In this document: positions 30,114-49,852 of the stretch, in pieces
Position numbering within the stretch: position 1 is the first letter of the stretch
How the letters are laid out: each line of letters opens with the position of its first letter
NCBI GenBank assembly: GCA_036270875.1
Contig: DATBBR010000070.1
Coordinates: 5,002-69,001, forward strand
Direction: 5' to 3'
From: Acidimicrobiales bacterium
Lineage (GTDB): Bacteria > Actinomycetota > Acidimicrobiia > Acidimicrobiales > AC-9
Length of the DNA: 64,000 bases
Program-made: the position numbers and the translations under genes
The notes under the pieces: model-generated
Databases searched by the model: none
Told to the model about the DNA's origin: nothing
What the model saw: only the letters and a program-made list of their open reading frames with translations

Positions 30114-31664
30114 ATGCGCAAACTTTCGCACGTGGGGAAGCTCGGTATCGCTGCCATGACGCTGGCGACCACCGCCGTGATGACGGCAGTGGGCTCGGGC
30201 GCGATCGGGGCGGCCAGCCCGGGCGCGCCACCGCCCGACAGCTCCGCAGCCGCCACGACCACGCCAATCAAGCACCTGGTCGTCATCTTCCAAGAGAACA
30301 TCTCGTTCGACCACTACTTCGGCACCTATCCTCACGCCACCAACCCGGCGGGTGAGCCGTCGTTCACGGCCAGCCACGACACACCGAGCGTCAACGGCCT
30401 GACCCCGTCCCTGCTGACCGCCAACCCAAATCAGGCCAACCCCAACCGACTGGACCGCAGCCAGGCGATCACCTGCGACCAGAACCACGACTACACGTCC
30501 GAGCAGCAGGCCTTCGACCACGGCCTGATGGACAAGTTCGTGCAGGACACAGGCGCGACGCCCCCATGCGATCCAAAGCAGGTCATGGACTACTACGACG
30601 GCAACACCGTCACGGCGCTCTGGAACTACGCGCAGCACTTCGCCATGAGCGACAACTCATTCTCGACCGGCTTCGGGCCGTCCACACCCGGCGCCCTCAA
30701 CCTCGTCTCCGGCCAGACCCACGGCGCCACACCCGCTGCCCTGCCGGGCGAGGTGGCCAACGGCACCGTCATCGGCGACCCCGACCCCACGGGAGACGAC
30801 TGCGGGGGGTCTACGGGAACGGCGAGCCTCACCGGCAACAACGTCGGCGACCTCCTCAACGCCAAGGGGGTCACGTGGGGCTGGTTCCAGGGGGGTTTCA
30901 AGCCCACCGGTCAGAGCAACGGCAAGGCGGTCTGCAACTCCGCCCACCCCAACGTCGGGGGCGTGAGCCAGCGGGACTACAGCGCTCACCACGAGCCCTT
31001 CCAGTACTACGCCCAGACGGCGAATCCGCACCACCTGCCCCCGACGTCGGTGGGCGCCATCGGGACGACCGACCAGGCGAAGCACCAGTACGACTTGTCA
31101 GACTTCTCGGCTTCGGCCGACAGCGGTCACCTGCCGGCGGTGAGCTTTCTCAAGGCCGCCAGGTACCAGGATGGCCACCCCGGGAACTCGGATCCGCTCG
31201 ACGAGCAGCACTTCCTGGTAGACACCATCAACCACCTCCAGAAGCTCGACAGTTGGAACTCGACGGCTGTGGTCGTGGCCTACGACGATTCGGATGGGTG
31301 GTACGACCACGTGATGGGACCCATCGTGAGCCAGTCCAACGATCCGAGCGCCGACGCCCTCACCGACCCGGGGATGTGTGGGACAGCCCAGCCCGGCGCC
31401 TACCAGGACCGCTGCGGCTACGGTCCCCGGCAGCCTCTCCTGACCATCTCGCCCTGGTCCAAGAGCAACTTCGTCGATCACTCGATCACCGACCAGACGT
31501 CGATCCTCCAGTTCGTCGAAGACAACTGGGGAACTGGTCGGATCGGCAACCAGTCGCTCGACGCCAAGGCCGGGAGCCTGACCAACCTCTTCGACTTCAC
31601 CGGGAATGCGGATGGGCGCCGGCTGACGCTCGATCCGACCACCGGGCAACCGACATCCGGCTAG
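30114..31664 (+). CDS. secreted phosphoesterase-family protein (AcpA / non-haemolytic phospholipase C family)
   Basis: N-terminal signal-like region, then IKHLVVIFQENISFDHYFGTYP and a later DDSDGWYDHV motif. Both are typical of the PF04185-type phosphoesterases I remember. Confidence 0.9.
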   Translation: MRKLSHVGKLGIAAMTLATTAVMTAVGSGAIGAASPGAPPPDSSAAATTTPIKHLVVIFQENISFDHYFGTYPHATNPAGEPSFTASHDTPSVNGLTPSLLTANPNQANPNRLDRSQAITCDQNHDYTSEQQAFDHGLMDKFVQDTGATPPCDPKQVMDYYDGNTVTALWNYAQHFAMSDNSFSTGFGPSTPGALNLVSGQTHGATPAALPGEVANGTVIGDPDPTGDDCGGSTGTASLTGNNVGDLLNAKGVTWGWFQGGFKPTGQSNGKAVCNSAHPNVGGVSQRDYSAHHEPFQYYAQTANPHHLPPTSVGAIGTTDQAKHQYDLSDFSASADSGHLPAVSFLKAARYQDGHPGNSDPLDEQHFLVDTINHLQKLDSWNSTAVVVAYDDSDGWYDHVMGPIVSQSNDPSADALTDPGMCGTAQPGAYQDRCGYGPRQPLLTISPWSKSNFVDHSITDQTSILQFVEDNWGTGRIGNQSLDAKAGSLTNLFDFTGNADGRRLTLDPTTGQPTSG

Positions 31665-31755
31665 TCGCACTAGGCCTCCGGGCGCCTTCGGCCGACGGTA
31701 GGATCTTCGCATCGATGAGATCCTGACGATTGCCTTCGGGATCGGACTGGCCGGT

Positions 31756-32169
31756 GTGGGCCTCGTCCGGCGGTGGCGCGGCGGTCGCTCGTCACTGGGC
31801 GCGACGGTGAACCGGCTCGGCACGGACGTCACGGTAGGTGTCGCCGGGGCCACGGAGGAGGCCGCCAAGCAGGCGGGCTCGCTTGCGGGAACGGCCGTCT
31901 CGGTCACGGGCTCGATCGTCGTGGGCGGCGCCAGCCTGATGGCCGACGGCGCCGTAACCCTCGCCAGTGTCGCTACAGGACACATCCTGAGCCGTCCGCC
32001 TTCGCCACGAGCGATGCCGGAGAAGGCAGCAGGCGAGAGAGGGCGTCCCGAGGCCGGCAATCCCAGTGGCGGCCAGCAAGCCAAACGCGCTCGCCCGAGC
32101 TCGACGCCGACATCCACCGGGCGGCGCTCGTCGACCACCAAGGCGCGCAAAGCTCCGAAGTCGTCATAG
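31756..32169 (+). CDS. hypothetical Gly/Ala/Val-rich protein (doubtful)
   Basis: The first ~70 codons have very high third-position GC, and the C-terminal half looks non-coding. A TM-like segment (ILTIAFGIGLAGVGLV) lies in frame upstream of the first canonical start (GTG 31756). Confidence 0.3.
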   Translation: MGLVRRWRGGRSSLGATVNRLGTDVTVGVAGATEEAAKQAGSLAGTAVSVTGSIVVGGASLMADGAVTLASVATGHILSRPPSPRAMPEKAAGERGRPEAGNPSGGQQAKRARPSSTPTSTGRRSSTTKARKAPKSS

Positions 32170-32213
32170 ACAGCGGCCAAGGGCGCCCCTGGCGAGCCCC
32201 CCGATAGCCTCGG

Positions 32214-34103
32214 GTGATGGCGGAGGAGACCCCGGCCGGGGAGGAAGCCGAACGCCAGGCCGGCGGCGGGCGCCTCGAGCAGATCTACCGAGAGTCGGAG
32301 CGCCTTCTGGCCAGGTGGCGCAGCCGATACCGCGGTCGCCCCGAGCGGGAGCGGCGCCGGCTCTGGCTCCTCGCCCTCGAGCGGGAGCAGCTGGTCGGTG
32401 TGGCCTACCGGGAGCGGGCGATCGCCCAGCGCGTCGCCCGAATGCCCCTCGATGCGGAGGTGCGCCATCTCGTGCGCCGGGCGCTCGTCTGGGTCTGGCA
32501 GGACGAGGAGATGCACGCCGCTTACGTGCGGGGGGTCCTCCTCCACCACGCCTCGGGGTGGATGCGAGGTTTGACCTACGGCGAGCAGCTCTACGGCGCC
32601 CTGTCCGGATGGGCCAGCGCCACGGACCAGCATCTCCACCTACGGGAGCGCCCGCTCGCGGTCGCCTTGGCGCGGACGTTGACCCTTGGGGGTTTGCTCA
32701 CGGGTCAGCTGAGCAGCGCCCTACGACAGGAGCTCGACTACGGGCCCTTCCGAAAGTTCTGCCGCCTCAACGTGGAGCTCGAGCGCAGCGCGGCGCTGTG
32801 CTGGGCCCGCATCGTCGAGCTGGCTGAGACCGAGGACGAGCGCGAGGCGGCCGAGCAGATCGCGGACGACGAGCGCAGGCACGGTCAGGTCTTCGCCCTG
32901 CTGGCAAGGGCCCTCGGTGACGACGACCGCCTCCGCCCGGGATGGACGAGGGATGTCGTCGTCGACGAGCTGCGGTCCGTCGGAGAGTGGTTCCTACCCG
33001 GGCGGGATCGAGCGGCGGCGGTCCGGCCCGGTCGCTTCGCCACCGGCGCGCCGGTGTTCGTCGAGCGGGGCAGCTCGTCCCCCGACAAGCGCGCCAGCCT
33101 CCGTCGGGTCCTCGACCGAGCGGGCCTGGCCGAGCTCATCACCTCGAAGGCCGCGGCTGGCCGGCCCCTCCGAGCCGCGGTGAAGACGGCCTTCATGCTC
33201 GGCTACGACCGCCACGACCGCTCGACGGTCGTCGACCCGATCCTGGTAGAGGAGCTCGCTCTCTACCTGGTCGACCACGGCGTCGCCGAGGTGGCGGTAC
33301 TGGAGGCGCCCACGCTCTACGACCGCTACTACGGGCACCGCTCGGTCGCCGAGGTGGCGCGCTACTTCGGCTTCGAGTCGCCCGCCTACCGCGTCGTCGA
33401 CTGCTCGCGGGACCAGGTCCCGTTCGCTTACCTGCGGGGGGCGGCCCAGTCGTGCATCAGCAGCACATGGCGCACCGCCGACGTGCGTCTCGTCCTCGCC
33501 AAGCTGCGCACCAACCCGTCGGAGCTCGGACACCTCTGCCTGTCGTCCCTCGAGGGGCTCGGCGAGCGCCAGGATCGCTACGTCTTCTCCGATCGCCAGC
33601 TCCACTACCGGATGGCCACCATGATGGTGATCGACGCCTACGCGCCGGATTTGGGCGTGGTCGACGCCTTCGAGGACGCCGCCCAGGGTCCCTTCGGCGT
33701 GATGGCCTGCCGCCACCCGGTGTCCCCCCGTCGTGTCTATGCCGGTGCCGACGCGCTGTCGGTCGACACCGTCGTGCTGCGGGACATGGGCGTGCCCGAT
33801 CCCCTCCTGTCACCGATGATCCGCATGGCCACCTACTGGTTCGACGCGCCGGAGGACGCTGCGACCGTGGTCGGTGGCGGCGGCCCGATCCCCGGCTTCC
33901 GCCACCCGTACCACAGCGGCATCTCGACCGCGCTGTCGACAGCCGCGTACCCCGTCTACGTCTACGGCAGCGGCGCCGGGCGGCTCTTCGTCCCCGCCAT
34001 GGACGAGGGCGCTTTTCCCCCCTTGGCCAAGACCGGGCCGGTCGTCGCCGCCGTCCGCGGAGCGGCCCAGCTGGCCTTCGGCCTGCGGCCGCCGGCCCGC
34101 TAG
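32214..34103 (+). CDS. fusion protein: N-terminal ferritin-like diiron four-helix-bundle domain + C-terminal DUF362 domain
   Basis: The N-terminal ~235 aa has ExxH pairs (WQDEEMHAAY at residues 98-101, IADDERRHGQVF at 220-223) preceded by Glu-bearing helices. From residue ~300 onward (AAVKTAFMLGYDRHDRSTVVDP ... VAVLEAPTLY ... VVDAFEDAAQGPFGVM) it resembles DUF362 as I remember it. Confidence 0.75.
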   Translation: MMAEETPAGEEAERQAGGGRLEQIYRESERLLARWRSRYRGRPERERRRLWLLALEREQLVGVAYRERAIAQRVARMPLDAEVRHLVRRALVWVWQDEEMHAAYVRGVLLHHASGWMRGLTYGEQLYGALSGWASATDQHLHLRERPLAVALARTLTLGGLLTGQLSSALRQELDYGPFRKFCRLNVELERSAALCWARIVELAETEDEREAAEQIADDERRHGQVFALLARALGDDDRLRPGWTRDVVVDELRSVGEWFLPGRDRAAAVRPGRFATGAPVFVERGSSSPDKRASLRRVLDRAGLAELITSKAAAGRPLRAAVKTAFMLGYDRHDRSTVVDPILVEELALYLVDHGVAEVAVLEAPTLYDRYYGHRSVAEVARYFGFESPAYRVVDCSRDQVPFAYLRGAAQSCISSTWRTADVRLVLAKLRTNPSELGHLCLSSLEGLGERQDRYVFSDRQLHYRMATMMVIDAYAPDLGVVDAFEDAAQGPFGVMACRHPVSPRRVYAGADALSVDTVVLRDMGVPDPLLSPMIRMATYWFDAPEDAATVVGGGGPIPGFRHPYHSGISTALSTAAYPVYVYGSGAGRLFVPAMDEGAFPPLAKTGPVVAAVRGAAQLAFGLRPPAR

Positions 34104-34158: not shown

Positions 34159-35961
34159 ATGCTCACCGTCGGGTCGCCGCTGCACGGGACGGTCGTCAGC
34201 ATCGACGTCGGCGAAGGCGACGTCGTACGCAGCGGACAACAGGTGGTCGTCATCGAGTCTATGAAGATGCAGCACCCAGTCGAGGCGGCGGCCGGCGGCT
34301 TCGTCCGCAAGATCGAGGTGTCGGTGGCCGACACGGTCGTGCCGGGTCAGGCCCTGGTTGTACTGGAGGAGGCGGCAGTCGGCGACGATGACGGACGTCA
34401 GGACCAGACCGGCCCCCCGCAGCAGATCCGGCCCGATCTCGCCGAGGTCCTCGAGCGCCACGCCATCGGACTCGACGACGCAAGACCGGACGCCGTGGAG
34501 CGACGCCGGCACACGGGCCAACGCACGGCCCGGGAGAACATCGAGGACCTGTGCGACGACGGGAGCTTCGTCGAGTACGGAGCGCTCGCCATCGCCGCGC
34601 AACGGCGACGCCGTGAGGTGGACGACCTGATCAGGCGAACGCCGGCGGACGGCATGGTGGCGGGGATCGGGACGGTCGACGATCACCGGACGATCGCCAT
34701 GTCCTACGACTACACCGTGCTGGCAGGGACCCAGGGTCTGCAGAACCACCGCAAGAAGGACCGGCTCTTCGAGCTGGCCGAGACGCTCCGCCTCCCGATC
34801 GTGTTCTTCACCGAGGGAGGCGGCGGACGACCCGGGGACACCGATGGCGTCGGCGTGAGCGGGCTCGACTGCATGGCCTTCAACCTCTTCGCCGGGCTGA
34901 GCGGCCTCGTGCCGCTGGTTGGTGTCAACTCCGGCTACTGCTTCGCCGGCAACGCCGCCATCCTCGGCTGTTGCGATGTGGTCATCGCCACGGCCAACTC
35001 CAACATCGGGATGGGCGGTCCGGCGATGATCGAAGGGGGCGGGCTGGGCGCCTACCCGCCTGGTGCCATCGGACCCATGGAGGTCCAGGTACCCAACGGC
35101 GTGGTGGACATCGCCGTGGCGGACGAGGCGGCCGCGGTCGCGACAGCGCGGCGGTACCTGTCATATTTCCGAGGGGCGGTCCCCGAGTGGGACGAGATGG
35201 ACCAGGCCCGCCTTCGCCACATCGTGCCCGAGGACCGGCTGCGCACCTACGACGTCAGGCAGGTGGTCTCCACGCTGGTCGACCGGGGCTCGCTGCTCGA
35301 GCTGCGCGAGGGGTTCGGGACGGGCATGATCACGGCCCTCGCCCGCGTCGGTGGTCGGCCCGTGGGCGTGATCGCCAACAACCCCGCTCATCTGGGCGGA
35401 GCCATCGACGGGGCGGGCGCCGACAAGGCCGCCCGCTTCATGCAGCTGTGCGACGGCTTCGACGTGCCGCTCATCTCGCTCTGCGACACGCCGGGCATCA
35501 TGGTGGGTCCCGAGTCGGAGAAGCAGGCGACCGTCCGCCATTGCGCTCGCATGTTCGTGATCGGGTCCACGATCACGGTCCCCTTGCTCACGATCGTGCT
35601 GCGAAAGGGCTACGGGCTGGGCGCCCAGGCCATGGCAGGAGGCAGCTTCAAGGCGCCGATCTTCACCGTGGCCTGGCCGACCGGAGAGTTCGGGGGAATG
35701 GGCCTCGAGGGCGCCGTGCGACTCGGTTACCGCCGCGAGCTCGACGCCATCGACGACCCCGAGCGCCGCGAGCAGGCGTTCCAGGAGATGGTCGCAGCCA
35801 TGTACCGGCACGGGAAGGCGCTCAACACCGCGACCTACTTCGAGATCGACGACGTGATCGACCCGGCCGACTCGCGCCGATGGATCATCGCCGCCCTCGA
35901 CTCGGCTCCACCCCCTCCAGCGCGGACGGGCAAGAAGCGTCCGTGCATTGACACCTGGTGA
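34159..35961 (+). CDS. biotinyl-domain (BCCP)::acyl-CoA carboxyltransferase fusion protein
   Basis: N-terminus SPLHGTVVSIDVGEGDVVRSGQQVVVIESMKMQHPVEA carries the E-S-M-K-M biotinylation motif (Lys36). The remaining ~500 aa is an AccD/PccB-type carboxyltransferase (DYTVLAGTQG, PIVFFTEGGGGRPGD, GVIANNPAHLGGAI, PLISLCDTPGIMVG). Confidence 0.9.
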   Translation: MLTVGSPLHGTVVSIDVGEGDVVRSGQQVVVIESMKMQHPVEAAAGGFVRKIEVSVADTVVPGQALVVLEEAAVGDDDGRQDQTGPPQQIRPDLAEVLERHAIGLDDARPDAVERRRHTGQRTARENIEDLCDDGSFVEYGALAIAAQRRRREVDDLIRRTPADGMVAGIGTVDDHRTIAMSYDYTVLAGTQGLQNHRKKDRLFELAETLRLPIVFFTEGGGGRPGDTDGVGVSGLDCMAFNLFAGLSGLVPLVGVNSGYCFAGNAAILGCCDVVIATANSNIGMGGPAMIEGGGLGAYPPGAIGPMEVQVPNGVVDIAVADEAAAVATARRYLSYFRGAVPEWDEMDQARLRHIVPEDRLRTYDVRQVVSTLVDRGSLLELREGFGTGMITALARVGGRPVGVIANNPAHLGGAIDGAGADKAARFMQLCDGFDVPLISLCDTPGIMVGPESEKQATVRHCARMFVIGSTITVPLLTIVLRKGYGLGAQAMAGGSFKAPIFTVAWPTGEFGGMGLEGAVRLGYRRELDAIDDPERREQAFQEMVAAMYRHGKALNTATYFEIDDVIDPADSRRWIIAALDSAPPPPARTGKKRPCIDTW

Positions 35962-41240: not shown

Positions 41241-42929
41241 TCAGGCGGACGGCAGGGGCCGCAGCCAGAGCTGCATGCCCTCCACCGTCCCGAGATGGGT
41301 GGCGCCCGCCGTCGAGACCGCCGGTGAGGGGTCATGTGGGCCGCTGATGACGAGGAGCGCCTGGTCAGGGCCCCGGACCTGCTCCTGGGGGCCGTAGCTG
41401 GTGCTGGCGGGTGGCTCGAGGTGGGTGGCCACGCCCGCCTTCTGGAGCTCCACGACGACCGAGGCAGCCAGGCCGAACTGGTCCGGGTCGGCTTCCTGGA
41501 CCCTGAGATCGCGCACGTGCATCGCCCGCACCGGCCGTTCGACGAGCTGGGCGGCGACCTGGCGTCCCGGGTCGTCGCCGTAGCCGATCGGCGGATCGCG
41601 GAGCAGCGACCACCCCAGGGCCAGGCACGGCACTGCGCAGCCCACCGCCAACGCCCCTGAGAGAACCCGGCGGCCGACGGGCCTCGAGAGCGGCCCGCCC
41701 TTCCGTTTCGCGACGAGGTCGAGCGCCAGCAGGCCGGCGCCGATCCACGCCGGAACGAGCACCGCGGTCGTCCACCACAGCAGGTGCTCGTACAACGGCC
41801 CGACGACCTGGGTCGCCGACACGACAGCGGCTCCGGACGCAACCACGGAGACGGCGCCGAGGGCCATGACCAGCTGGTGGCGACGTCGCCAACCGATCAG
41901 CGCAAGACCCACCCCGACCAGGACGCCGCCCCCGAGGATGACGAGGCGACCGGTGTAGGCCGAGTTGGGCCCGGCAAACTGGTTGGGCTCGCAGCATGGA
42001 AAGGGATCCGCCTTGAGCGGCAGGGTGGCCGCGTACTCGGCCACGCCCCGCACCGCCTGGCCCCTCGTGTGTCGTCCCCCGGCCTCTTGCGCCGTGGGCG
42101 GGTGCTCGAAGAACGAGACGATCCTGCCGGCGTTGCCCGGCGTCCGGGTCGTCTGCTGGATCAGCGGCGGCACCCACACCAGCACGACGAACAGCGCGCT
42201 CCCCGCCAGGGCGACGAGGTGACGCGAGGGCCTGGTCCAGGGAGGCAGCGCGGGCGCCGTCGCCGCTGACCCCGCCCGCTTCCTCCAAACTGCCCAGCCC
42301 CACAGGGCGGCGCCAACCACGAGCACGGCGAGGACGGCCGGCGCAGTCCCCAGCTCACTCTGGATGACGAACGAGCCGACCAGCCCGGCCCACAACAAGG
42401 AGAGGGTCGATCCGGTCGCGGCGGCCGCTGCCAGGATCATCACCAGCAAGAAGGGCAGTGCCAACAGGGCCGGGTTCCACGGGTTGTACAGCGACAGGGA
42501 AGAGGCCTCGCTGAAGAAGAGGAGGCCGCCGACCACCAGGGCGCCCCACCGCGCGGCCCACTCTCCAGCCCGCCAGCGGATGACGACGATGATGGCGAGC
42601 GCGCAGACGGCGTTGATGAGAAAGGCACCCAGGAACATCGCCCGGGCGCTCTCCCCGAAGATCCAGTAGACCGGGGCCATCACGTAGAAGTAGGCCGGCC
42701 CGGGATGGAACCAGCCGAAGTGCGAGTAGGGCCCCAGAAGCTGATGGCCGCCGAGGGTGTCCCTGATGGTGGACTCGAGGACGGCGACGTCGCCGAAGCT
42801 GACGAACGGTTGATTGATGCTGGACAGGGCCCGGCCGACCCCCACCCCGACGGGCACCAGCATCATCACGATCGAGATCGGCGCGAAGCGGCTCGCGGTG
42901 CCGGCGATCCTTGCCGCCCGTTCACTCAT
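41241..42929 (-). CDS. large polytopic membrane protein with a C-terminal soluble domain (possible GT-C-like)
   Basis: About 12 hydrophobic segments. Start placed at ATG 42929 (MSERAARIAG). Conserved-looking segment GPYSHFGWFHPGPAYFYVMAP. The family was not identified. Confidence 0.65.
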   Translation of the reverse strand: MSERAARIAGTASRFAPISIVMMLVPVGVGVGRALSSINQPFVSFGDVAVLESTIRDTLGGHQLLGPYSHFGWFHPGPAYFYVMAPVYWIFGESARAMFLGAFLINAVCALAIIVVIRWRAGEWAARWGALVVGGLLFFSEASSLSLYNPWNPALLALPFLLVMILAAAAATGSTLSLLWAGLVGSFVIQSELGTAPAVLAVLVVGAALWGWAVWRKRAGSAATAPALPPWTRPSRHLVALAGSALFVVLVWVPPLIQQTTRTPGNAGRIVSFFEHPPTAQEAGGRHTRGQAVRGVAEYAATLPLKADPFPCCEPNQFAGPNSAYTGRLVILGGGVLVGVGLALIGWRRRHQLVMALGAVSVVASGAAVVSATQVVGPLYEHLLWWTTAVLVPAWIGAGLLALDLVAKRKGGPLSRPVGRRVLSGALAVGCAVPCLALGWSLLRDPPIGYGDDPGRQVAAQLVERPVRAMHVRDLRVQEADPDQFGLAASVVVELQKAGVATHLEPPASTSYGPQEQVRGPDQALLVISGPHDPSPAVSTAGATHLGTVEGMQLWLRPLPSA

Positions 42930-43153
42930 CGATCGGGCGCGACGCCCGCCGGCGGCGGTGGTCTCGCCGCCAGGTCGGGCCGGCCTCCCGGGGCGCCCCC
43001 AGGCCCGCCTGGTCGTGACCGACATGGGGCCTGATAGTAGAGGCCCGGCGGCTGGCTCCACGGCGTCCGAGCGGGCCTGATGCGCCTCGGCGCGGCGCTA
43101 CGATCGAGGTGCAAGCGAGCGAGGGCCGTCTGCGGCGAGCGTCGAGGGGGAGC

Positions 43154-43579: not shown

Positions 43580-43652
43580 TCGGAGGGACGGCTGGGCCGT
43601 CCTGGGCGTGGTGGCATCCGGGCCACGGCGGCGGTGACTACCCTGGCGGGCC

Positions 43653-45263
43653 GTGACGAGCCGCTCCGTCGAAGCACCCCCGGAGCACCCCGAGCCGGTC
43701 GTTCCGAGCGAGCGCGCGCCGGGCCGCCTGTCCCGCCCCACCATGTGGCTGGGACTGGCCGCAGCCGCAGTGCTGGTCGCCGCCATCGTGCTGCGCTTCT
43801 GGGCCCGGTCGCCACTGTGGTTGGACGAGGCGAACACCGTCGGCATCGCCGGGCTTCCGTTCTCCCGCATCCCCGACGCCCTCCGCCACGACGGGGCACC
43901 CCCGCTGTACTACCTGCTCCTTCACGGGTGGATCCGGCTGTTCGGCACCAGCGATCTGGCCGTGCGGTCGCTGGGCGGCGTGATCGCCGTCGCCGCGTTG
44001 CCGTTCATGTGGCTCGCCGGGCGTCGGGTCGGAGGACGGCCGGGGGCGTGGGTCGCCCTGCTGCTCCTGGCCAGCTCGCCGTTTGCCGTGCGCTACGCCA
44101 CCGAGGCCCGCATGTACTCGCTGGTCATCCTCCTCGTCGTGTGCGGCTTCCTCGCCCTGTCCCGGGTGCTGGAGCGTCCCCGGCCGAGACCACTCGACCT
44201 CGTCGCCGTGACCGCCCTCACCGCCCTGCTCCTGTACACCCACTACTGGTCGATCTACCTGCTCGTGGTGGTGGTCGCCATCCTCGCCTGGCGCATCCGC
44301 ACCCGGCCCGCGGATCGGACCGCCCCCTTCTGGGCGCTGGGCGCCATCGCCGCCGGGTGCGTCCTGTTCCTGCCTTGGGTGCCGATCTTCCTGTCCCAGC
44401 TCCGGCACACCGGGACACCGTGGGCCGAGCCGGCGAGCTTCAGTGCCATGGTCAACGCCATCGGCGAGTTCGCCGGCGGTAAGTCCAGCGCCGGTCGGGG
44501 CCTCGGGCTGACCTTCTTCGCCCTGACCTTCCTCGCCCTGTTCGGCATGGCTCTGGACGGTCACCGGATAGAGCTCGATCTCCGCACCCGGCGACCGCCC
44601 CGGGCTCTGGCTATCGCCACGGCGGGAACGCTCGCACTGGCCATCGCCGTCGGCCTGGTCTCGAGGAGCGCCTTCCAGGGTCGCTACGCGGCGGTCGTGC
44701 TCCCGATCTTCCTCCTCCTGGCTGTGCTCGGGATGGCGACCCTGGCCGACCGGCGCATCAGGGCAGGGGTGCTCGCCATCGCCGTGGTCCTGGGGCTGGT
44801 CGCCTCGGCCAGCAACGTGACGACCAACCGCACCCAGGCCGGACAGGTGGCCGCGGCGATCAACGCGGCAGCCAAGCCTGGCGATGTGGTCGGTTACTGC
44901 CCCGACCAGCTGGGCCCGTCCGTGAGCCGCCTGCTCCCGAGCAATCTGGTCCAGCTGACCTTCCCGGCGGGCGCAGCGCCGCAGCGGGTGGACTGGTCCG
45001 ACTACTCGGCCAGGAACGCCGCGGGCCAGCCGGCCGCCTTCGCCCGGACCCTCGCCTCCCGGGCTGGTCCCGGCCACACCATCTGGCTGGTGTGGATCAG
45101 CGGCTACAAGACACTCGACTTCAAGTGCGAAACGCTCTCCAGCCAGCTGGCGGGCCTGCGACCAGGTGCGACCCAGGTCGTGAGGCCGGACACCAACGCC
45201 CACGACGACCTCACCGGTGTCTTCGAGCAGCAGGCCCTGTTCCGCTACCCGGCAACCCCCTGA
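43653..45263 (+). CDS. GT-C-fold membrane glycosyltransferase (family 39 / PMT_2-like)
   Basis: SPLWLDEANTVGIA ... DGAPPLYYLLLHGW ... RSLGGVIAVAALPFMWLAGRR is typical of the ArnT/PMT_2 N-terminal region. A C-terminal soluble domain is present. An alternative ATG start is at 43743. Confidence 0.8.
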   Translation: MTSRSVEAPPEHPEPVVPSERAPGRLSRPTMWLGLAAAAVLVAAIVLRFWARSPLWLDEANTVGIAGLPFSRIPDALRHDGAPPLYYLLLHGWIRLFGTSDLAVRSLGGVIAVAALPFMWLAGRRVGGRPGAWVALLLLASSPFAVRYATEARMYSLVILLVVCGFLALSRVLERPRPRPLDLVAVTALTALLLYTHYWSIYLLVVVVAILAWRIRTRPADRTAPFWALGAIAAGCVLFLPWVPIFLSQLRHTGTPWAEPASFSAMVNAIGEFAGGKSSAGRGLGLTFFALTFLALFGMALDGHRIELDLRTRRPPRALAIATAGTLALAIAVGLVSRSAFQGRYAAVVLPIFLLLAVLGMATLADRRIRAGVLAIAVVLGLVASASNVTTNRTQAGQVAAAINAAAKPGDVVGYCPDQLGPSVSRLLPSNLVQLTFPAGAAPQRVDWSDYSARNAAGQPAAFARTLASRAGPGHTIWLVWISGYKTLDFKCETLSSQLAGLRPGATQVVRPDTNAHDDLTGVFEQQALFRYPATP

Positions 45264-45417
45264 GCCTGCGGCCATGCTGCGCCGGGACGGCATCGGACAG
45301 CGCCTGCCGACGACCTCGAGTCGGCCCTCGGGCCGGGCTCGGGCAAGCGTGTCGGGCAGGCTGCGGGTGGCCTGGACGGGAGCTCCGGGCCGCCCGGGCG
45401 GGATCAGGGCCGACGTC

Positions 45418-46503
45418 ATGGCGGCGCTTCCGGGCTGGATCACGGCTCGGCTCATCGTGCTCGGGGCGCTCGCCCTGTCCCACTTCCTGGTGACTCACCT
45501 GCATCCGACGGCGGCGGGCGTGTCCTTCCGGGTCGACCAGGGCCTCCTCGGTTGGGACGCCGGCTTCTACCGCGCTATCGCCTCGCACGGCTACGCCCCC
45601 CTCGGCCACAGCGCAACGCGGTTTTGGCCGCTGGTCCCCCTCGTGGCCCGCTACCTCGCCCTGGGCATCGCCAGCGCCACCGGTGTCACCCTGCTGATCG
45701 TCGCCAACGTCTCGGCGCTGGCCCTCGGCGCCCTGCTGCACCGCCTGGCGCTCGTCGAGACCGGCGACCGCGCCCTCGCCCGGCGGGCGGCCTGGCTGAT
45801 GGCCCTGGTGCCGCCGGCTTTCGTCCTGGTGATGGGGTACGCCGAGGCCACAGCCATCGCCCTGGCGGTGGCCGCCTTCCTCGCTCTCCGCACCCGGCGC
45901 TGGGAATGGGCGGTGGCGGCCGGCCTGGCCGCCGGCCTCGCCCGACCGCTCGGCGTGCTCCTGGTGGTGCCCGCCGCCGTGGAGGCGGCACGGGGCTGGT
46001 CCGCCATCTCGCGACGGGAGGCGGTGGCCCGCGTGGGGGCGGTGGCGGCGCCGGCCGTGGGCGGCGCCATCTTCCTCGGTTGGTCGTGGCTGGCCTACGG
46101 CGATCCGCTGGTCCCGGTGCACGCCCAGCAGGCGGCCGGCCAGCGCGGCGGCTTCGTCGACCCTGTCACCTCCCTCGGCCACGAGGCTCGCCTGTTCATC
46201 CACGGGCACATCGGCAGCGGGCTCCACGACCCCTGGGCGATCGGCCTGGTCCTGCTGCTGGTCGTGTGCCTGCTCCGTTGGCCTGCGTCCTACGGGGCGT
46301 TCGCTGCCGCCACGCTGGTCCTGGCTCTGAGCTCGCGCAACCTCGACTCCCTCGAGCGCTACGCCCTGAGCGCGTTCCCACTGGTCCTGGCGGGCGCAGG
46401 CCTCACGGCCAGCGGCCGCGTGGAGCGAGGCGTGCTCGCCCTCGGCGCCGCGGGGATGGCTGGCTACGCCACCCTCGCCTTTCTCAACGCCTATGTGCCC
46501 TGA
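45418..46503 (+). CDS. GT-C-type mannosyltransferase-family membrane protein (PIG-V/GT76-like, tentative)
   Basis: About 9 TM helices with an early loop LLGWDAGFYRAIASHGY, reminiscent of the W-D-..-Y..IA..GY motif of PIG-V-like mannosyltransferases. The start is uncertain (ATG 45418 chosen). Confidence 0.7.
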   Translation: MAALPGWITARLIVLGALALSHFLVTHLHPTAAGVSFRVDQGLLGWDAGFYRAIASHGYAPLGHSATRFWPLVPLVARYLALGIASATGVTLLIVANVSALALGALLHRLALVETGDRALARRAAWLMALVPPAFVLVMGYAEATAIALAVAAFLALRTRRWEWAVAAGLAAGLARPLGVLLVVPAAVEAARGWSAISRREAVARVGAVAAPAVGGAIFLGWSWLAYGDPLVPVHAQQAAGQRGGFVDPVTSLGHEARLFIHGHIGSGLHDPWAIGLVLLLVVCLLRWPASYGAFAAATLVLALSSRNLDSLERYALSAFPLVLAGAGLTASGRVERGVLALGAAGMAGYATLAFLNAYVP

Positions 46504-46618
46504 GGCCGCTCCACGGATGCCACCGCCCTCGTCTCCGTCGCGGGCGGACGGGGACGGTATCGTGGAATGTCCCGTCCCGGCGCTGCCCAGTGTGGGCACG
46601 CGGCCCACTAAGGAGAAC

Positions 46619-48208
46619 ATGGAGCCCTCCTCAGAGGCGACTGCAGATCCTCGCGAAACCGCACCCTCTGGGCGCACCCAGGACGGATCCGATCGACCCG
46701 CAACGGCGAGGGACTTGGAGGCGGTCATCATCGGCGCCGGCCCGGCAGGGCTCACCGCCGCGTACCAGCTGGCCAAGTCGGGGAGGACGTCCACGGTGCT
46801 GGAAGCCGACTCCGTCGTCGGCGGCATCAGCAGGACCACCGAGCGCGACGGCTGGCGCTTCGACATGGGCGGTCACCGGTTCTTCACCAAGGTGCCGGCG
46901 GTCGAGCGGCTCTGGCACGAGATCCTCCCCGAGGGCGACTTCCTCCTCCGCCCCCGCAAGAGCCGCATCTTCTACGGCGGCAGGTACTTCGACTACCCGA
47001 TCCGCGGCGGCAACGCCCTGCGCAACCTCGGTCCCGTCGAGGCGGTTCGCTGCGTCGGCTCCTACGCGCGGGCCCGGGTGCGCCCGCCCAAGGACCAGGA
47101 CAACTACGAGGGCTGGCTGGTCGCCCGTTTCGGATGGCGGCTCTACCGGACGTTCTTCAAGACCTACACCGAGAAGGTCTGGGGCATCCCGGTGAGCCAG
47201 ATGCCGGCGGACTGGGCGGCGCAGCGGGTCAAGGGTCTGTCGCTGGGCAAAGCGATCGTGAACTCCCTCACGCCCAAGCGCAACCAGAAGGACATCACGT
47301 CGCTCATCGAGGAGTTCCAGTACCCGAAGTTCGGGCCGGGAATGATGTGGGAGGCCTGTCGCGAGAAGGTCGAGGCCCAGGGCTCGAAGGTCGTCTTCGA
47401 GACCAAGGTGACGCGCATCGGTCGTCGCGACAATCGCGCCGTCGAAGTGGAAGCGACGACGACCGGGGGTGGGACCACGACCTACCCCGTCAGCGAGGTC
47501 ATCTCGTCCATGCCGTTCGGCGCCCTTGTCGAGGCGATGGACCCACCCGCTCCCGACGAGGTCCGTCGGGCCGCGGCCGGGCTCATCTACCGGGACTTCC
47601 TCACTGTCGCCCTGGTCGTGCCGGCCGACCGGGTGGCCTGGGACGACAACTGGATCTACATCCACGCTCCCGACGTGAGAACGATGCGGATCCAGAACTT
47701 CGGCTCCTGGTCGCCCTACCTCGTCAAGGGCGGCCGCAACGTCCTGGGTCTCGAGTACACGGTGTTCGAGGGCGACCACTCGTGGACCGCGAGCGATGAG
47801 GAGCTGATCGAACGGGGCAAGCAGGAGCTCGAGCAGCTCGGGCTCATGAAGGCCGCCGATGTGGAGGCCGGCTACGTGGTGCGGATGCCCAAGGCGTACC
47901 CCATCTACGACGAGCATTACCGGGACAACGTGGAGGTACTGCGCGCCTGGCTGGAGGCCAACGTGGTCAACGTCTATCCCGTCGGTCGCAACGGCATGCA
48001 CCGGTACAACAACCAGGACCACTCCATGTACACGGCGATGCTCACCGTCGAGAACATCCTCGGTGCCAGCAACGACATCTGGAGCGTCAACGTCGAGGCC
48101 GACTACCACGAGGAGAAGGCTTCGGACCGGCCCGGTCAGGGTCGGTCGGGAACGGGCCGAGACGCCCCGGTGCTCCCCCGCGAGGCGATCCAGGGCGCCC
48201 GCCGGTAG
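46619..48208 (+). CDS. NAD(P)/FAD-dependent oxidoreductase (amine-oxidase / UDP-galactopyranose-mutase-like fold)
   Basis: Dinucleotide motif VIIGAGPAGLTAAYQL ... EADSVVGG. Conserved YPKFGPGMMWE and GRNGMHRYNNQDHS. AAGGAG lies 5 nt upstream of the ATG at 46619. Confidence 0.85.
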   Translation: MEPSSEATADPRETAPSGRTQDGSDRPATARDLEAVIIGAGPAGLTAAYQLAKSGRTSTVLEADSVVGGISRTTERDGWRFDMGGHRFFTKVPAVERLWHEILPEGDFLLRPRKSRIFYGGRYFDYPIRGGNALRNLGPVEAVRCVGSYARARVRPPKDQDNYEGWLVARFGWRLYRTFFKTYTEKVWGIPVSQMPADWAAQRVKGLSLGKAIVNSLTPKRNQKDITSLIEEFQYPKFGPGMMWEACREKVEAQGSKVVFETKVTRIGRRDNRAVEVEATTTGGGTTTYPVSEVISSMPFGALVEAMDPPAPDEVRRAAAGLIYRDFLTVALVVPADRVAWDDNWIYIHAPDVRTMRIQNFGSWSPYLVKGGRNVLGLEYTVFEGDHSWTASDEELIERGKQELEQLGLMKAADVEAGYVVRMPKAYPIYDEHYRDNVEVLRAWLEANVVNVYPVGRNGMHRYNNQDHSMYTAMLTVENILGASNDIWSVNVEADYHEEKASDRPGQGRSGTGRDAPVLPREAIQGARR

Positions 48209-48343: not shown

Positions 48344-49852
48344 GTGTCCTTCGCGCTGCTCTTCGTGATGGGCGCATCGTGGGCCGTGGCCAGCCCCTTG
48401 CTCAGCGGGTCCGACGAGGGAGCCCACGCCATCAAGGCCGCGGCCGTCGTCAGGGGCGAACTGCGGGGGGCGAACACCGGACCGCGTGGTCGACCTTGGC
48501 TGGTGCACGTCCCGGCACCGTTCGCCGGCGCCCAGGTCCCCTCCACCCTGTGCTACCTCTTCCGCTCCGGCGCGGCCGGCAGCTGCGGGTTCTCAATCGG
48601 CGGGCCGACATCGCTCGAGCAGGTCAACACGCAGTTCGGCGGCTATCCGCCGCTGTACTACCTGGCGGTCGGGCTGCCGAGCCTGGCCGCGCCGTCGGCG
48701 CTGGGGCTCTACCTGATGCGCCTGGTCAGCGTGGCCATCACGTCTGCGTTCCTGGCCTCGGCCCTTGTCTCGGCCTTCTCCTGGCGCAGGTCACGGATGT
48801 TGGTCCTGGGCACGGGAGTCGCGATCGTGCCCGCCGTGATCTACATCGGCGCCGTGATCAACGACAGCGGTCTCGAGATCAGCCCGGCCATCTGTCTGTG
48901 GGTGTCCCTGTTGGTCTTCATCCTCGACCCGCCGCCCGACGGTGGCGGGCGACTCCTCACCCGAGCCGGCGTCTCGGCCGGCGCCCTCGTGTTGGCCCGC
49001 CCGCTCTCGCCAGTGTGGCTCGTCGTGATCGTCTGCACTGTGCTCGCCCTGATGAGCCGGGAGCGCCTGGCTGCCGTGCTGAGACGCCGCGACGTCCAGG
49101 TGTGGGCGGCGATCGTGGCGGTGTGCACGGGCCTTGCCGTCGTGTGGACCACCTCGGTCGGCGTCGCCGTGGTCGGCCGCCCCTGCCCCTCGAGATGCAC
49201 GTCTGCGTTCGTAACCGGGTACGTGCTCAGCCACACTGACACCTACATCCGCCAAATGACGGGACTGTTCAGCTACAACAACGTGGCCGCCCCCCTGTTC
49301 ACCTTCGTGCTGTGGTGGACCCTTGCCGCGGCGCTCGCCGTCATAGCGCTCATCGTCGGCCGGCGCCGGGACGCGCTCGTCCTCGTCGGTCTGACGGCGG
49401 CGACGATCTTCCTGCCGGTCGTCATCCAGCTCGGGGAGGCCGCCAACTACGGAATACTGTGGCAGGGCCGCTATTCCCTGCCCTTGGCGACCGGGATTCC
49501 TCTCCTCGCCGCATTCATCATCGGGCGGCGGTCACCCGGTCTCGAGCTACGGCAGCGGCGGTTGGCAACGACCGCCATCGCCGCCATCGCCGTGGGCCAC
49601 GCCGGCGCCTTCATCTGGAGCCTTCGCCACTTCATGTGGGGTCAAGGACAGTGGAGCTTCCTGCATTCTCAGTGGGAGCCGCCGGTACCGGGCATCGTGC
49701 TCGTCATCGCCTTCGTGGCCGTGGCCTCCAGCTACGCGTGGTGGTTGCGCGCCCACCTTGTGCTCGGTGGCGCGCCATCAGCCCCGTCAGTTGCCGGTGC
49801 TCGAGGCGGTCGCACCCGAGGCGACCGGCAGGCGGGGTCGCAGTCGGGATAG
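48344..49852 (+). CDS. DUF2142-like polytopic membrane protein (GT-C-like candidate)
   Basis: The early periplasmic-loop motif SGSDEGAHAIKAAAV resembles the P-DE..H..RA motif of DUF2142. About 11 TM helices. The first canonical start in frame is the GTG at 48344. Confidence 0.75.
   Translation: MSFALLFVMGASWAVASPLLSGSDEGAHAIKAAAVVRGELRGANTGPRGRPWLVHVPAPFAGAQVPSTLCYLFRSGAAGSCGFSIGGPTSLEQVNTQFGGYPPLYYLAVGLPSLAAPSALGLYLMRLVSVAITSAFLASALVSAFSWRRSRMLVLGTGVAIVPAVIYIGAVINDSGLEISPAICLWVSLLVFILDPPPDGGGRLLTRAGVSAGALVLARPLSPVWLVVIVCTVLALMSRERLAAVLRRRDVQVWAAIVAVCTGLAVVWTTSVGVAVVGRPCPSRCTSAFVTGYVLSHTDTYIRQMTGLFSYNNVAAPLFTFVLWWTLAAALAVIALIVGRRRDALVLVGLTAATIFLPVVIQLGEAANYGILWQGRYSLPLATGIPLLAAFIIGRRSPGLELRQRRLATTAIAAIAVGHAGAFIWSLRHFMWGQGQWSFLHSQWEPPVPGIVLVIAFVAVASSYAWWLRAHLVLGGAPSAPSVAGARGGRTRGDRQAGSQSG

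What the first reader, a model, noticed from the sequence alone, without database searches (positions are those of the whole stretch)
32214..34103. Ferritin-like diiron domain fused to a DUF362 domain
Seen: residues ~50-235 form four predicted helices carrying E...ExxH twice (…LEREQ…, WQDEEMH; …VELERS…, DDERRH). This is the ligand pattern of diiron-carboxylate four-helix bundles (ferritin-like / rubrerythrin / demethoxyubiquinone-hydroxylase type). Residues ~300-629 resemble DUF362, a family of unknown function that I recall often being associated with Fe-S or ferredoxin-like inserts.

I do not know of a characterised protein with this combination.

Inference: this may be a self-contained oxidase/oxygenase in which DUF362 supplies substrate binding or electron transfer.
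Basis: partly seen in the sequence, partly recalled or inferred. Interest (0 to 1): 0.55.

Follow-up and report, generated by a model that had tools for sequence, protein, structure and literature searches.

The report
Diiron-type domain fused to DUF362
This gene encodes a conserved, uncharacterised two-domain protein of soil bacteria: a two-metal (diiron-type) helical bundle permanently fused to a lactate-racemase-fold domain of unknown function, most likely an oxygen-using tailoring enzyme whose substrate is unknown.

Summary
ORF 32214-34103 (+) encodes 629 aa. Residues 323-522 pass Pfam's threshold for DUF362. The N-terminal half carries a full E / ExxH / E / ExxH ligand set (E56, E98-H101, E190, E220-H223), conserved in 157-158 of 159 full-length relatives (30-99.7% identity).

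The fusion is no frameshift artefact. It is encoded full-length in at least 213 species-level genomes from about eight phyla, and the N-domain occurs almost only in this architecture (425 hits among 1.84 billion representatives).

The C-half has the LarA (lactate racemase) fold but no conserved histidine and no Fe-S motif. It is therefore neither a LarA-type nickel-pincer enzyme nor an Fe-S electron-transfer module.

In other phyla the gene heads a conserved operon with a CrtI-like flavoprotein desaturase and an Asp-nucleophile (epoxide-hydrolase-type) hydrolase, and rare proteins fuse these partners to it. In Acidimicrobiia a SAM methyltransferase follows instead. The window's own copy has no such partner nearby.

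The best reading is a dimetal-carboxylate oxidase/oxygenase whose DUF362 domain holds the substrate or a cofactor. It belongs to a small-molecule or lipid tailoring pathway. The substrate is unknown and no characterised homologue was found. I rate it a new variant of a known kind, of moderate interest.

The parts
32214..34103 (+). Complete gene for the fusion protein: 629 aa from GTG 32214 (or 628 aa from ATG 32217), stop TAG 34101-34103.
   Evidence: ORF listing; 100%-identical 628-aa database protein P0001 and more than 120 full-length homologues; codon check.
32214..33029 (+). N-terminal all-helical domain (residues 1-272), a divergent ferritin-like dimetal-carboxylate bundle.
   Evidence: AF2 domain model with pLDDT 89.6; Ferritin_2 and Rubrerythrin hits in homologues; profile hits in the PDB only to diiron or ferritin-like proteins; best-probability fold hits Rv2844, TM1526 and MJ0754.
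32340..32912 (+). Core bundle (residues 43-233) holding the four ligand helices 43-64, 81-110, 179-203 and 207-233.
   Evidence: DSSP on the models; invariant columns.
32379..32387 (+). E56-R57-E58 (the 'LEREQ' motif): first carboxylate ligand on helix 43-64. Both Glu residues are conserved.
   Evidence: E56 157/159 and E58 157/159.
32502..32516 (+). D97-E98-x-x-H101 (the 'DEEMH' motif): first ExxH ligand pair.
   Evidence: E98 158/159, H101 158/159, D97 154/159.
32556..32732 (+). Extra helices (residues 115-173) inserted between the two helix pairs, with the conserved G128, G132 and W133. A candidate lid, substrate channel or inter-domain contact.
   Evidence: Secondary structure; conservation. 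The role is inferred.
32769..32783 (+). N186...E190 (the 'NVELE' motif): third-helix carboxylate ligand E190.
   Evidence: E190 158/159, N186 147/159.
32868..32882 (+). D219-E220-x-x-H223 (the 'DDERRH' motif): second ExxH ligand pair.
   Evidence: E220 158/159, H223 158/159, D219 152/159.
32913..33053 (+). Structured linker (residues 234-280) with the conserved D238, F260, P262 and R266.
   Evidence: Conservation; the full-length model has pTM 0.86, which points to a fixed domain arrangement.
33039..34100 (+). C-terminal alpha/beta domain (residues 276-629) with the LarA / DUF362-clan fold.
   Evidence: Foldseek hits to LarA and LarA-like structures (9eia, 6c1w, 5huq, 9q3j, 7s91) at E 2e-4 to 1e-2 and probability 1.0; DUF362 and DUF2088 share Pfam clan CL0471 (PMC11770544).
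33180..33779 (+). Pfam DUF362 (PF04015) match, residues 323-522.
   Evidence: 29.6 bits against a gathering score of 24; 24 of 24 homologues match, best E 1.5e-17.
33501..33503 (+). K430, the only highly conserved Lys in the C-half (in the 'KLRT-P' motif). Possibly the counterpart of the cofactor-binding Lys of LarA; this equivalence is not established.
   Evidence: K430 155/159; no His column in residues 276-629 reaches 90%.
33978..34022 (+). Highly conserved C-terminal segment (residues 589-603, 'G-x-LFVP-x-MD-x-x-AFPP').
   Evidence: G589, F592, D597, F601 and P602 conserved. Role unknown.

Best explanation
The gene encodes a cytoplasmic two-domain enzyme. The N-terminal helical bundle binds a two-metal centre (Fe-Fe, possibly Mn-Fe) through E56, E98, H101, E190, E220 and H223. 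By analogy with other ferritin-like dimetal-carboxylate enzymes, the reduced centre reacts with O2, or less likely H2O2, to hydroxylate, epoxidise or otherwise oxidise a substrate. The fused DUF362 domain has the LarA fold but lacks LarA's histidines and any Fe-S insert. It provides the binding pocket for the substrate or an organic cofactor and is rigidly packed against the bundle. Electrons must come from a separate protein. In most relatives the gene is the first of an operon. In one type a CrtI-like FAD desaturase and an Asp-nucleophile, epoxide-hydrolase-type alpha/beta hydrolase follow it. In the other type a SAM methyltransferase follows it. The family therefore most likely performs the oxygen-inserting step of a short tailoring pathway on a hydrophobic small molecule or lipid: desaturate, then oxygenate, then open or hydrolyse; or hydroxylate, then methylate. 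Shown: domain identities, ligand conservation, obligate fusion, and operon or fusion partners. Inferred: metal binding, O2 chemistry, the role of DUF362 and the nature of the substrate. The window's own copy has no partner gene within 64 kb.
For: A complete six-residue ligand set is conserved in 157-158 of 159 relatives down to 30% identity, with each ligand near mid-helix on a separate long helix. All weak sequence matches of the N-domain are to diiron or ferritin-like proteins: Ferritin_2 and Rubrerythrin in homologues, and EncC, bacterioferritin, Mn catalase KatB and designed due-ferri proteins. The highest-probability fold hits are Rv2844, TM1526, MJ0754 and Dps-like. The C-half is DUF362 above threshold with the LarA fold. 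The fusion is obligate: 213 species genomes carry it. The N-domain profile finds only 425 proteins among 1.84 billion, and the best are all about 600-635-aa fusions or fragments. The apparent stand-alone N-domains are a contig-end fragment and a frameshifted full-length gene. Context: 37 of 77 loci have a CrtI-like gene and then a hydrolase directly downstream, and 22 of 77 have a methyltransferase. The hydrolase has HGYP and G-x-D-M-G-G in 36 of 38 sequences, plus conserved D244 and H272, and its best PDB hits are epoxide hydrolases and fluoroacetate dehalogenases. The flavoprotein's best hits are carotenoid desaturases. Natural fusions add an alpha/beta-hydrolase domain (P0164, P0181) or an amine-oxidase-type domain (P0132) to the C-terminus. 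Precedent: the CrtI-like UfaD desaturates acyl chains alongside an O2-dependent partner (PMC7380195).
Against: There is no experimental datum on any family member. For the window protein itself the ferritin-like HMM hits are below threshold. The N-domain has no significant structural neighbour, with all Foldseek E-values above 0.27. The window gene and its nearest relatives (61-90% identity) lack the partner genes nearby, so the operon inference is transferred from relatives at 42-50% identity. No reductase is identified. The same ligand set also occurs in non-oxygenase ferritin-like proteins such as ferroxidases, peroxidases and catalases.
Confidence: 0.55

Rival explanations
1. The N-domain is a protective or iron-handling module (rubrerythrin-like peroxidase, ferroxidase, or Dps/encapsulated-ferritin-like) and not an oxygenase. 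The DUF362 domain carries the real, O2-independent catalytic activity.
For: The closest sequence families are Ferritin_2 and Rubrerythrin. The PDB profile hits are EncC, bacterioferritin and Mn catalase. Fold hits include Dps-like proteins.
Against: All these matches are marginal. There is no rubredoxin-type CxxC domain. A 350-aa domain fused to every subunit, plus the extra helices at 115-173, does not fit cage-forming ferritins. The N-domain is found almost only in this fusion. The operon partners are tailoring enzymes, not iron or peroxide genes.
Confidence: 0.15
2. The dimetal bundle is a sensor or regulatory domain responding to O2, iron or redox state that switches the DUF362 domain on or off. 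It performs no chemistry on the substrate.
For: The domains are rigidly coupled (pTM 0.86). ECF sigma and ZAS anti-sigma genes lie next to the operon in 12 loci. The DUF362 function is unknown, so it could be the sole catalyst.
Against: Near-absolute conservation of a complete catalytic-type ligand set plus the second-shell D97, D219 and N186. Ferritin-like bundles are not an established sensor class (established knowledge). The partners, a desaturase, an epoxide-hydrolase-type hydrolase and a methyltransferase, fit an oxygen-inserting step.
Confidence: 0.1
3. The C-half is a LarA-type nickel-pincer-nucleotide (NPN) racemase or epimerase, with the N-domain as an accessory.
For: The best structural matches of the C-half are all LarA or LarA-like NPN enzymes at probability 1.0. 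DUF362 shares a clan with LarA_N. One Lys, K430, is 97% conserved.
Against: No His column in residues 276-629 reaches 90% conservation, so counterparts of LarA His108, His174 and His200 cannot be conserved. There is no sequence-level match to LarA. No larB, larC or larE-like cluster appears among the conserved neighbours.
Confidence: 0.05
4. The fusion is an artefact: a sequencing frameshift or a gene-calling error has joined two separate genes.
For: None. One relative (L086) shows the opposite error: a fused gene broken apart by frameshifts.
Against: 159 non-identical full-length proteins and 213 species genomes show the same continuous reading frame. The linker is conserved. The two domains are confidently co-modelled.
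Confidence: 0.01

Closest known systems
Ferritin-like dimetal-carboxylate superfamily (Pfam clan CL0044), e.g. Ferritin_2 PF13668, Rubrerythrin PF02915, Rv2844 (2ib0), TM1526 (1vjx), COQ7, acyl-ACP desaturase, AurF/CmlI
   Same: It has a helical bundle with the E / ExxH / E / ExxH ligand set on four helices. Weak HMM and fold matches point to this superfamily and no other.
   Different: It matches no existing family model at threshold for this protein. It has about 60 residues of extra helices between the helix pairs and a long N-terminal helix. It is always fused to a 350-aa DUF362 domain. It has no rubredoxin domain and is unlikely to form a cage. No partner reductase is identified.
DUF362 (PF04015), uncharacterised; often carries nested 4Fe-4S ferredoxin inserts
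   Same: There is a full-length HMM match above the gathering score in every family member.
   Different: There is no Fe-S insert or Cys motif. It is very divergent: 29.6 bits here, and word-based searches do not reach canonical DUF362 proteins. It has an added conserved C-terminal segment and is fused to a dimetal bundle. The hosts are soil and peat Actinomycetota, Acidobacteriota and Planctomycetota.
LarA lactate racemase and LarA-like nickel-pincer-nucleotide enzymes (DUF2088; PDB 5huq, 6c1w, 9eia, 9q3j)
   Same: The fold of the C-half is shared (Foldseek probability 1.0), as is the Pfam clan.
   Different: It is only 9-16% identical, with TM 0.31-0.39 over the target. No conserved His could serve as the Ni ligand or as catalytic bases. 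There is no sequence-level match.
Alternative oxidase / PTOX (membrane-bound diiron quinol oxidases; TAO, PDB 3vv9 and 9kun)
   Same: It shares the ligand pattern and has additional helices between the ligand-bearing pairs. In the full-length fold search TAO was the best N-half match (probability 0.97, 244 columns). Like PTOX with phytoene desaturase, it neighbours a CrtI-type desaturase (an analogy only).
   Different: The match is not robust: probability 0.47 and rmsd 16.9 with the domain-only model. There is no Pfam AOX hit and no hydrophobic membrane-binding segment (maximum Kyte-Doolittle 1.31).
Furan-fatty-acid pathway UfaM / UfaD / UfaO (Rhodobacter, PMC7380195)
   Same: The logic of the gene set is shared: a CrtI-like FAD desaturase acting on a lipid chain, an O2-dependent enzyme and a SAM methyltransferase, in a regulon controlled by an ECF sigma factor.
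   Different: UfaO is a DUF1365 protein, not ferritin-like or DUF362. Orthology of the flavoprotein to UfaD was not tested. The Asp-nucleophile hydrolase has no counterpart in that pathway.

Membership tests
Ferritin-like dimetal-carboxylate superfamily | A six-residue ligand set (E, ExxH, E, ExxH) spread over four helices | tested here: met
   E56, E98/H101, E190 and E220/H223 lie on helices 43-64, 81-110, 179-203 and 207-233 and are conserved in 157-158 of 159 sequences.
Ferritin-like dimetal-carboxylate superfamily | A significant match to an HMM of a family in the clan | tested here: inconclusive
   The window protein scores only 12.9 bits for Rubrerythrin against a cut-off of 22.8. Among homologues, Ferritin_2 matches 9 of 24 (best E 8.7e-6), Rubrerythrin matches 4 of 24, and P0162 scores 25.1 bits for Rubrerythrin.
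Ferritin-like dimetal-carboxylate superfamily | A four-helix-bundle fold that superposes on known members | tested here: inconclusive
   The model is confident (pLDDT 89.6) but no Foldseek hit has E below 0.27. The best probabilities are ferritin-like proteins: Rv2844 0.94 (TMt 0.65), TM1526 0.87 and MJ0754 0.75.
Ferritin-like dimetal-carboxylate superfamily | Binds two metal ions at the site | not testable with these tools
   This needs metal analysis, spectroscopy or a structure.
DUF362 (PF04015) | An HMM match above Pfam's gathering score over the whole domain | tested here: met
   29.6 bits against 24, residues 323-522, profile positions 3-199 of 200; 24 of 24 homologues match.
DUF362 (PF04015) | A nested Fe-S (ferredoxin-like) insert. 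This is frequent in the family but not defining. | tested here: not met
   The match is contiguous with no insertion. There are six scattered Cys and no CxxC. Only C499 is semi-conserved, at 84%.
LarA / NPN-dependent 2-hydroxyacid racemases | The LarA fold | tested here: met
   Foldseek probability 1.0, E 2e-4 to 1e-2, to 9eia, 8ezf, 6c1w, 5huq, 2yjg, 9q3j, 7s91 and 6d6z.
LarA / NPN-dependent 2-hydroxyacid racemases | Catalytic His108 and His174 and the Ni-ligand His200 | tested here: not met
   The residue roles come from PMC11770544. No His column in residues 276-629 exceeds 69% conservation.
LarA / NPN-dependent 2-hydroxyacid racemases | NPN-binding Lys184 and Arg75 | tested here: inconclusive
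   K430 (97%) and several conserved Arg residues (R376, R425, R432, R461) exist. Structural equivalence could not be checked because no residue-level superposition is available.
LarA / NPN-dependent 2-hydroxyacid racemases | Association with the larB, larC and larE cofactor-synthesis genes | tested here: not met
   The conserved neighbour clusters identified within 7 kb across 85 loci are a CrtI-like flavoprotein, an alpha/beta hydrolase and a methyltransferase (Pfam-annotated), and by sequence inspection an ECF sigma factor, an SDR and an MFS transporter. Genome-wide presence was not tested.
Alternative oxidase (AOX/PTOX) | A match to the AOX family model, and membrane-binding amphipathic helices | tested here: not met
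   There is no Pfam AOX hit. The fold match is unstable, probability 0.97 then 0.47. There is no strongly hydrophobic segment.
Rubrerythrin | A C-terminal rubredoxin-like domain with two CxxC pairs | tested here: not met
   There is no CxxC anywhere in the protein.

The most novel reading that the evidence does not exclude
The family is a new class of O2-activating dimetal enzyme in which a LarA-fold (DUF362) domain presents a lipid or isoprenoid-like substrate, or a nucleotide-derived cofactor, to the metal site. With its CrtI-like desaturase and epoxide-hydrolase-type partner it would make a so far undescribed oxidised lipid or metabolite in soil Acidobacteriota, Planctomycetota and Actinomycetota. 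This would also give the first functional assignment to any DUF362 protein.
Probability: 0.2. Interest if true: 0.7.

Novelty: new variant of a known kind. Interest (0 to 1): 0.55.

Why it matters
Ferritin-like diiron enzymes are a rich source of unusual oxygen chemistry, including desaturation, N-oxygenation, epoxidation and alkane formation. DUF362 is a large family with no known function, and its only characterised structural relatives use an organometallic nickel cofactor. This family is an obligate fusion of the two, conserved in more than 200 species of abundant but little-studied soil bacteria. It has a clear three-gene operon and natural triple fusions, which makes it a well-defined experimental target. 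A cultured host, Actinoplanes, is available. Solving it could assign a first function to DUF362 and uncover a new oxidative tailoring pathway.

Tried and rejected
1. Frameshift or artefactual fusion: rejected. The short N-domain-only hits are a contig-end fragment (P0174) and a frameshifted full-length gene (P0162 in L086).
2. AOX-like quinol oxidase: suggested by the first fold search but not reproduced with the domain-only model, and there is no AOX HMM hit. It is kept only as an analogy.
3. LarA-type NPN enzyme: rejected because the C-half has no conserved His and no sequence-level match to LarA.
4. UfaO of furan-fatty-acid synthesis: recalled from memory, then checked. UfaO is DUF1365, so this family is not UfaO.
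5. Riboswitch or other RNA in the 550-bp upstream spacer: Rfam found nothing.
6. NCBIfam: no model matches the protein.
7. The window's own context (phosphoesterase upstream, BCCP-carboxyltransferase downstream): shared only with the 90%-identical L005, so it is not informative.
8. The amine-oxidase gene at 46.5-48.2 kb: not an orthologue of the conserved partner, at 25% identity against a within-cluster median of 53%.
9. PDB matches for the methyltransferase partner: generic only.
10. Literature searches for DUF362, PF04015 or the gene combination: no functional study found.
Full report
**Observation.** Pfam places DUF362 (PF04015) on residues 323-522 at 29.6 bits, above the gathering score of 24, and the match covers essentially the whole profile without interruption. 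For this single sequence the ferritin-like half is only hinted at. Rubrerythrin scores 12.9 bits, below its cut-off. The best PDB sequence matches are the encapsulated ferritin EncC and the ferritin-like Rv2844, at E 0.016-0.026. NCBIfam has no model for the protein.

**The fusion is real, old and widespread.** A database search returned 169 relatives. More than 120 of them are full-length (about 610-640 aa) and cover at least 95% of the query at 42-100% identity. They are annotated only as 'DUF362 domain-containing protein' or hypothetical. A scan of one genome per species found full-length relatives in 213 species. The hosts are Actinomycetota (mostly Acidimicrobiia, also Actinoplanes), Acidobacteriota, Planctomycetota, Verrucomicrobiota, Chloroflexota, Binatia, a betaproteobacterial MAG and Candidatus Entotheonella, and almost all come from soil or peat. 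The nearest relative (L005, 90% identity) is an uncultured Actinomycetes MAG. Relatives at 82-85% identity are annotated Acidimicrobiales.

A profile of the N-domain alone was searched against 1.84 billion representative proteins. It found only 425 proteins at E <= 1e-3, and 148 at E <= 1e-30. The listed hits are about 600-635-aa fusions, fragments, or still longer fusions. Two apparent stand-alone N-domains were checked. P0174 is cut by a contig end. P0162 is followed immediately by the C-half broken over three reading frames, so it is a frameshifted or decayed full-length gene. The refutation test 'the two halves are separate genes in relatives' therefore fails, and the fusion is obligate.

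**N-terminal half.** I aligned 159 non-identical full-length proteins (30-99.7% identity to the window protein, median 47%). Conservation of the ligand positions is as follows.

| Residue | Conserved in (of 159) |
|---|---|
| E56 | 157 |
| E58 | 157 |
| E98 | 158 |
| H101 | 158 |
| E190 | 158 |
| E220 | 158 |
| H223 | 158 |

The second-shell residues D97, D219 and N186 are conserved in 147-154 sequences. In VELERS the conserved residue is E190, not E188. AlphaFold models are confident: full length has pLDDT 85.2 and pTM 0.86, and the N-domain alone has pLDDT 89.6. They place each ligand near the middle of a separate long helix (43-64, 81-110, 179-203, 207-233). A long N-terminal helix (8-38) and extra helices at 115-173 lie outside the two helix pairs.

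Every weak sequence signal points to the ferritin-like clan. Ferritin_2 matches 9 of 24 homologues (best E 8.7e-6) and Rubrerythrin matches 4 of 24. The profile hits in the PDB are EncC, a bacterioferritin, Mn catalase KatB and designed due-ferri bundles. Structurally the domain has no significant neighbour, with all Foldseek E-values above 0.27. The highest-probability matches are small ferritin-like proteins: Rv2844 0.94, TM1526 0.87 and MJ0754 0.75. In the full-length search the best N-half match was the trypanosome alternative oxidase at probability 0.97. That fell to 0.47 with the domain-only model, so I treat AOX as an analogy and not a relationship. I conclude that this is a divergent, self-contained lineage of the ferritin-like dimetal-carboxylate superfamily. 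Metal binding itself was not testable.

**C-terminal half.** All significant structural matches of the full-length model are lactate racemase LarA and LarA-like nickel-pincer-nucleotide enzymes, at E 2e-4 to 1e-2, probability 1.0 and 9-16% identity. This agrees with DUF362 and the LarA N-domain (DUF2088) sharing Pfam clan CL0471 (PMC11770544). LarA depends on His108 and His174 for catalysis, His200 as the Ni ligand, and Lys184 and Arg75 for cofactor binding. Here no His column in residues 276-629 exceeds 69% conservation. The only highly conserved Lys is K430, at 97%. There is no sequence-level hit to LarA. The domain therefore has the LarA fold but not the LarA mechanism.

That is true of the wider family (PMC7955657; PMC5742341) but not of this protein. 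The HMM match is contiguous, there are six scattered Cys and no CxxC, and only C499 is semi-conserved. No paper in the held library assigns a function to DUF362.

**Genomic context.** The window's own neighbours are a secreted PF04185 phosphoesterase upstream and a biotinyl-carboxyltransferase fusion downstream. These are shared only with the 90%-identical L005, so they carry no functional signal. No Rfam family matches the 550-bp upstream spacer or anywhere else in the window.

I clustered all flanking ORFs across 85 loci and then ran a relaxed tblastn. The 77 loci with at least 1.5 kb of downstream sequence fall into three groups.

| Arrangement downstream of the fusion gene | Loci | Hosts |
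|---|---|---|
| CrtI-like flavoprotein (~468 aa) directly downstream on the same strand, then an alpha/beta hydrolase (~296 aa) | 37 | All non-actinobacterial |
| SAM methyltransferase (~349 aa) directly downstream | 22 | Acidimicrobiia and other Actinomycetes |
| None of the three | 18 | The window, its closest relatives, and Actinoplanes |

- **Flavoprotein.** In the initial clustering its median gap from the fusion gene is 12 bp. It scores 187 bits on the phytoene-desaturase family model (below that model's cut-off). Its best PDB hits are gamma-carotene and phytoene desaturases, at E about 1e-28.
- **Hydrolase.** It carries HGYP in 36 of 38 sequences, G-x-D-M-G-G in 36 of 38, and conserved D244 and H272. 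That is the Asp-His-Asp machinery of epoxide hydrolases and dehalogenases. Its best PDB hits are epoxide hydrolases and fluoroacetate dehalogenases.
- **Natural fusions.** P0164 and P0181 (888-889 aa) add the hydrolase domain to the C-terminus of the fusion protein, and P0132 (1006 aa) adds an amine-oxidase-type domain.
- **ECF sigma factor.** One lies just upstream in 12 loci. In L045 it is paired with a ZAS-type anti-sigma factor.
- **The window's other flavoprotein.** The window does encode an amine-oxidase-superfamily protein at 46493-48208, but it is only 25% identical to the partner cluster, whose within-cluster median is 53%. It is not an orthologue.

**Mechanism.** The shown facts are these: a complete, strictly conserved dimetal-carboxylate ligand set; an obligate and rigid fusion to a LarA-fold domain that has neither LarA's histidines nor an Fe-S cluster; and operonic or fused association with a CrtI-type desaturase plus an Asp-nucleophile hydrolase, or with a methyltransferase. 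From these I infer that the N-domain binds two metal ions and uses O2 to oxidise a substrate held by the DUF362 domain, with electrons supplied in trans. Both operon types fit an oxygen-inserting step. One would be desaturation, then epoxidation or hydroxylation, then hydrolytic opening. The other would be hydroxylation followed by methylation. The precedent that a CrtI-like enzyme (UfaD) desaturates lipid acyl chains next to an O2-dependent enzyme (PMC7380195) makes a lipid or isoprenoid-like substrate plausible. That pathway's oxygenase is DUF1365, however, so this is an analogy only. I put 0.55 on the general reading (dimetal oxidase/oxygenase with DUF362 as the binding module) and about 0.2 on the specific pathway logic.

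The rivals are:
- a protective or iron-handling ferritin or rubrerythrin-like module (0.15);
- a sensor domain (0.1);
- a LarA-type NPN enzyme (0.05);
- an artefactual fusion (0.01).

**Novelty and verdict.** Both superfamilies are known, and the proteins already sit in databases as 'DUF362 domain-containing protein'. The N-terminal dimetal domain is not recognised by current family models in most members. The architecture has no characterised representative in any source searched here, and the conserved operon has not been described in the literature available to me. I classify it as a new variant of a known kind. Interest is moderate, at 0.55. It is a clean and widespread target that could yield new diiron chemistry and a first function for DUF362. 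It does not bear on a long-standing open question, and its function remains inferred.

Noticed in passing
window 31665-32213 (ORF 31756-32169, + strand): The 550-bp spacer upstream of the gene carries about 440 bp that are absent from the 90%-identical relative L005, where the gap is 130 bp. The extra DNA holds a 137-aa ORF with a Gly/Ala/Val-rich hydrophobic core and a basic Ser/Thr/Pro-rich tail. No Rfam match.
   Followed up: partly
window 34159-35961 (+): The downstream gene fuses a biotinyl/lipoyl carrier domain directly to a carboxyltransferase domain (Biotin_lipoyl + Carboxyl_trans, 600 aa), with no biotin carboxylase domain. It starts 56 bp after the stop codon of the fusion gene. The longest ORF at the corresponding place in L005 is 709 aa and lies 204 bp downstream.
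   Followed up: no
window 30114-31664 (+): A PF04185 phosphoesterase (phospholipase C / acid phosphatase family, 281.9 bits) with a signal-peptide-like N-terminus lies directly upstream. The arrangement is syntenic with L005 only.
   Followed up: no
L086 4001-5851: In a 1.33-Mb long-read MAG contig the family gene is split over several reading frames and was called as a 281-aa 'stand-alone' N-domain. It is either an assembly indel error or a pseudogene. A methyltransferase still follows it.
   Followed up: yes
protein P0173 (1274 aa): One family member continues after the DUF362 domain into CAP, fibronectin-III and DUF4214 domains, an odd extracellular-type extension on an otherwise cytoplasmic-looking enzyme. 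It may be a gene-call or assembly artefact.
   Followed up: no
window 46493-48208 (+) and 48344-49852 (+): An amine-oxidase-superfamily flavoprotein sits next to a DUF2142 membrane protein. It is not orthologous to the conserved CrtI-like partner of the family (25% identity).
   Followed up: partly
window 41241-43061, 43638-45455 and 45211-46866 (all - strand): Three long ORFs (550-605 aa) have no Pfam match at E <= 1e-5. In a 70% G+C genome they may be spurious antisense ORFs or unannotated genes.
   Followed up: no
L045 8328-9729 (- strand), plus 11 other loci: A divergently transcribed ECF sigma factor with a ZAS-type (H-x3-C-x2-C) membrane anti-sigma factor lies immediately upstream of the operon in 12 loci of both operon types. 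This hints at stress-responsive control.
   Followed up: partly
L002 / L015 (Actinomycetes MAG), downstream of the family gene: A 444-aa FAD amine-oxidase-type gene and then a sigma-70-family gene follow the family gene, with DUF1295/PEMT and CMAS genes about 9-10 kb further on. The flavoprotein did not cluster with the CrtI-like partner at my thresholds, so the count of 37 may be a lower bound.
   Followed up: no
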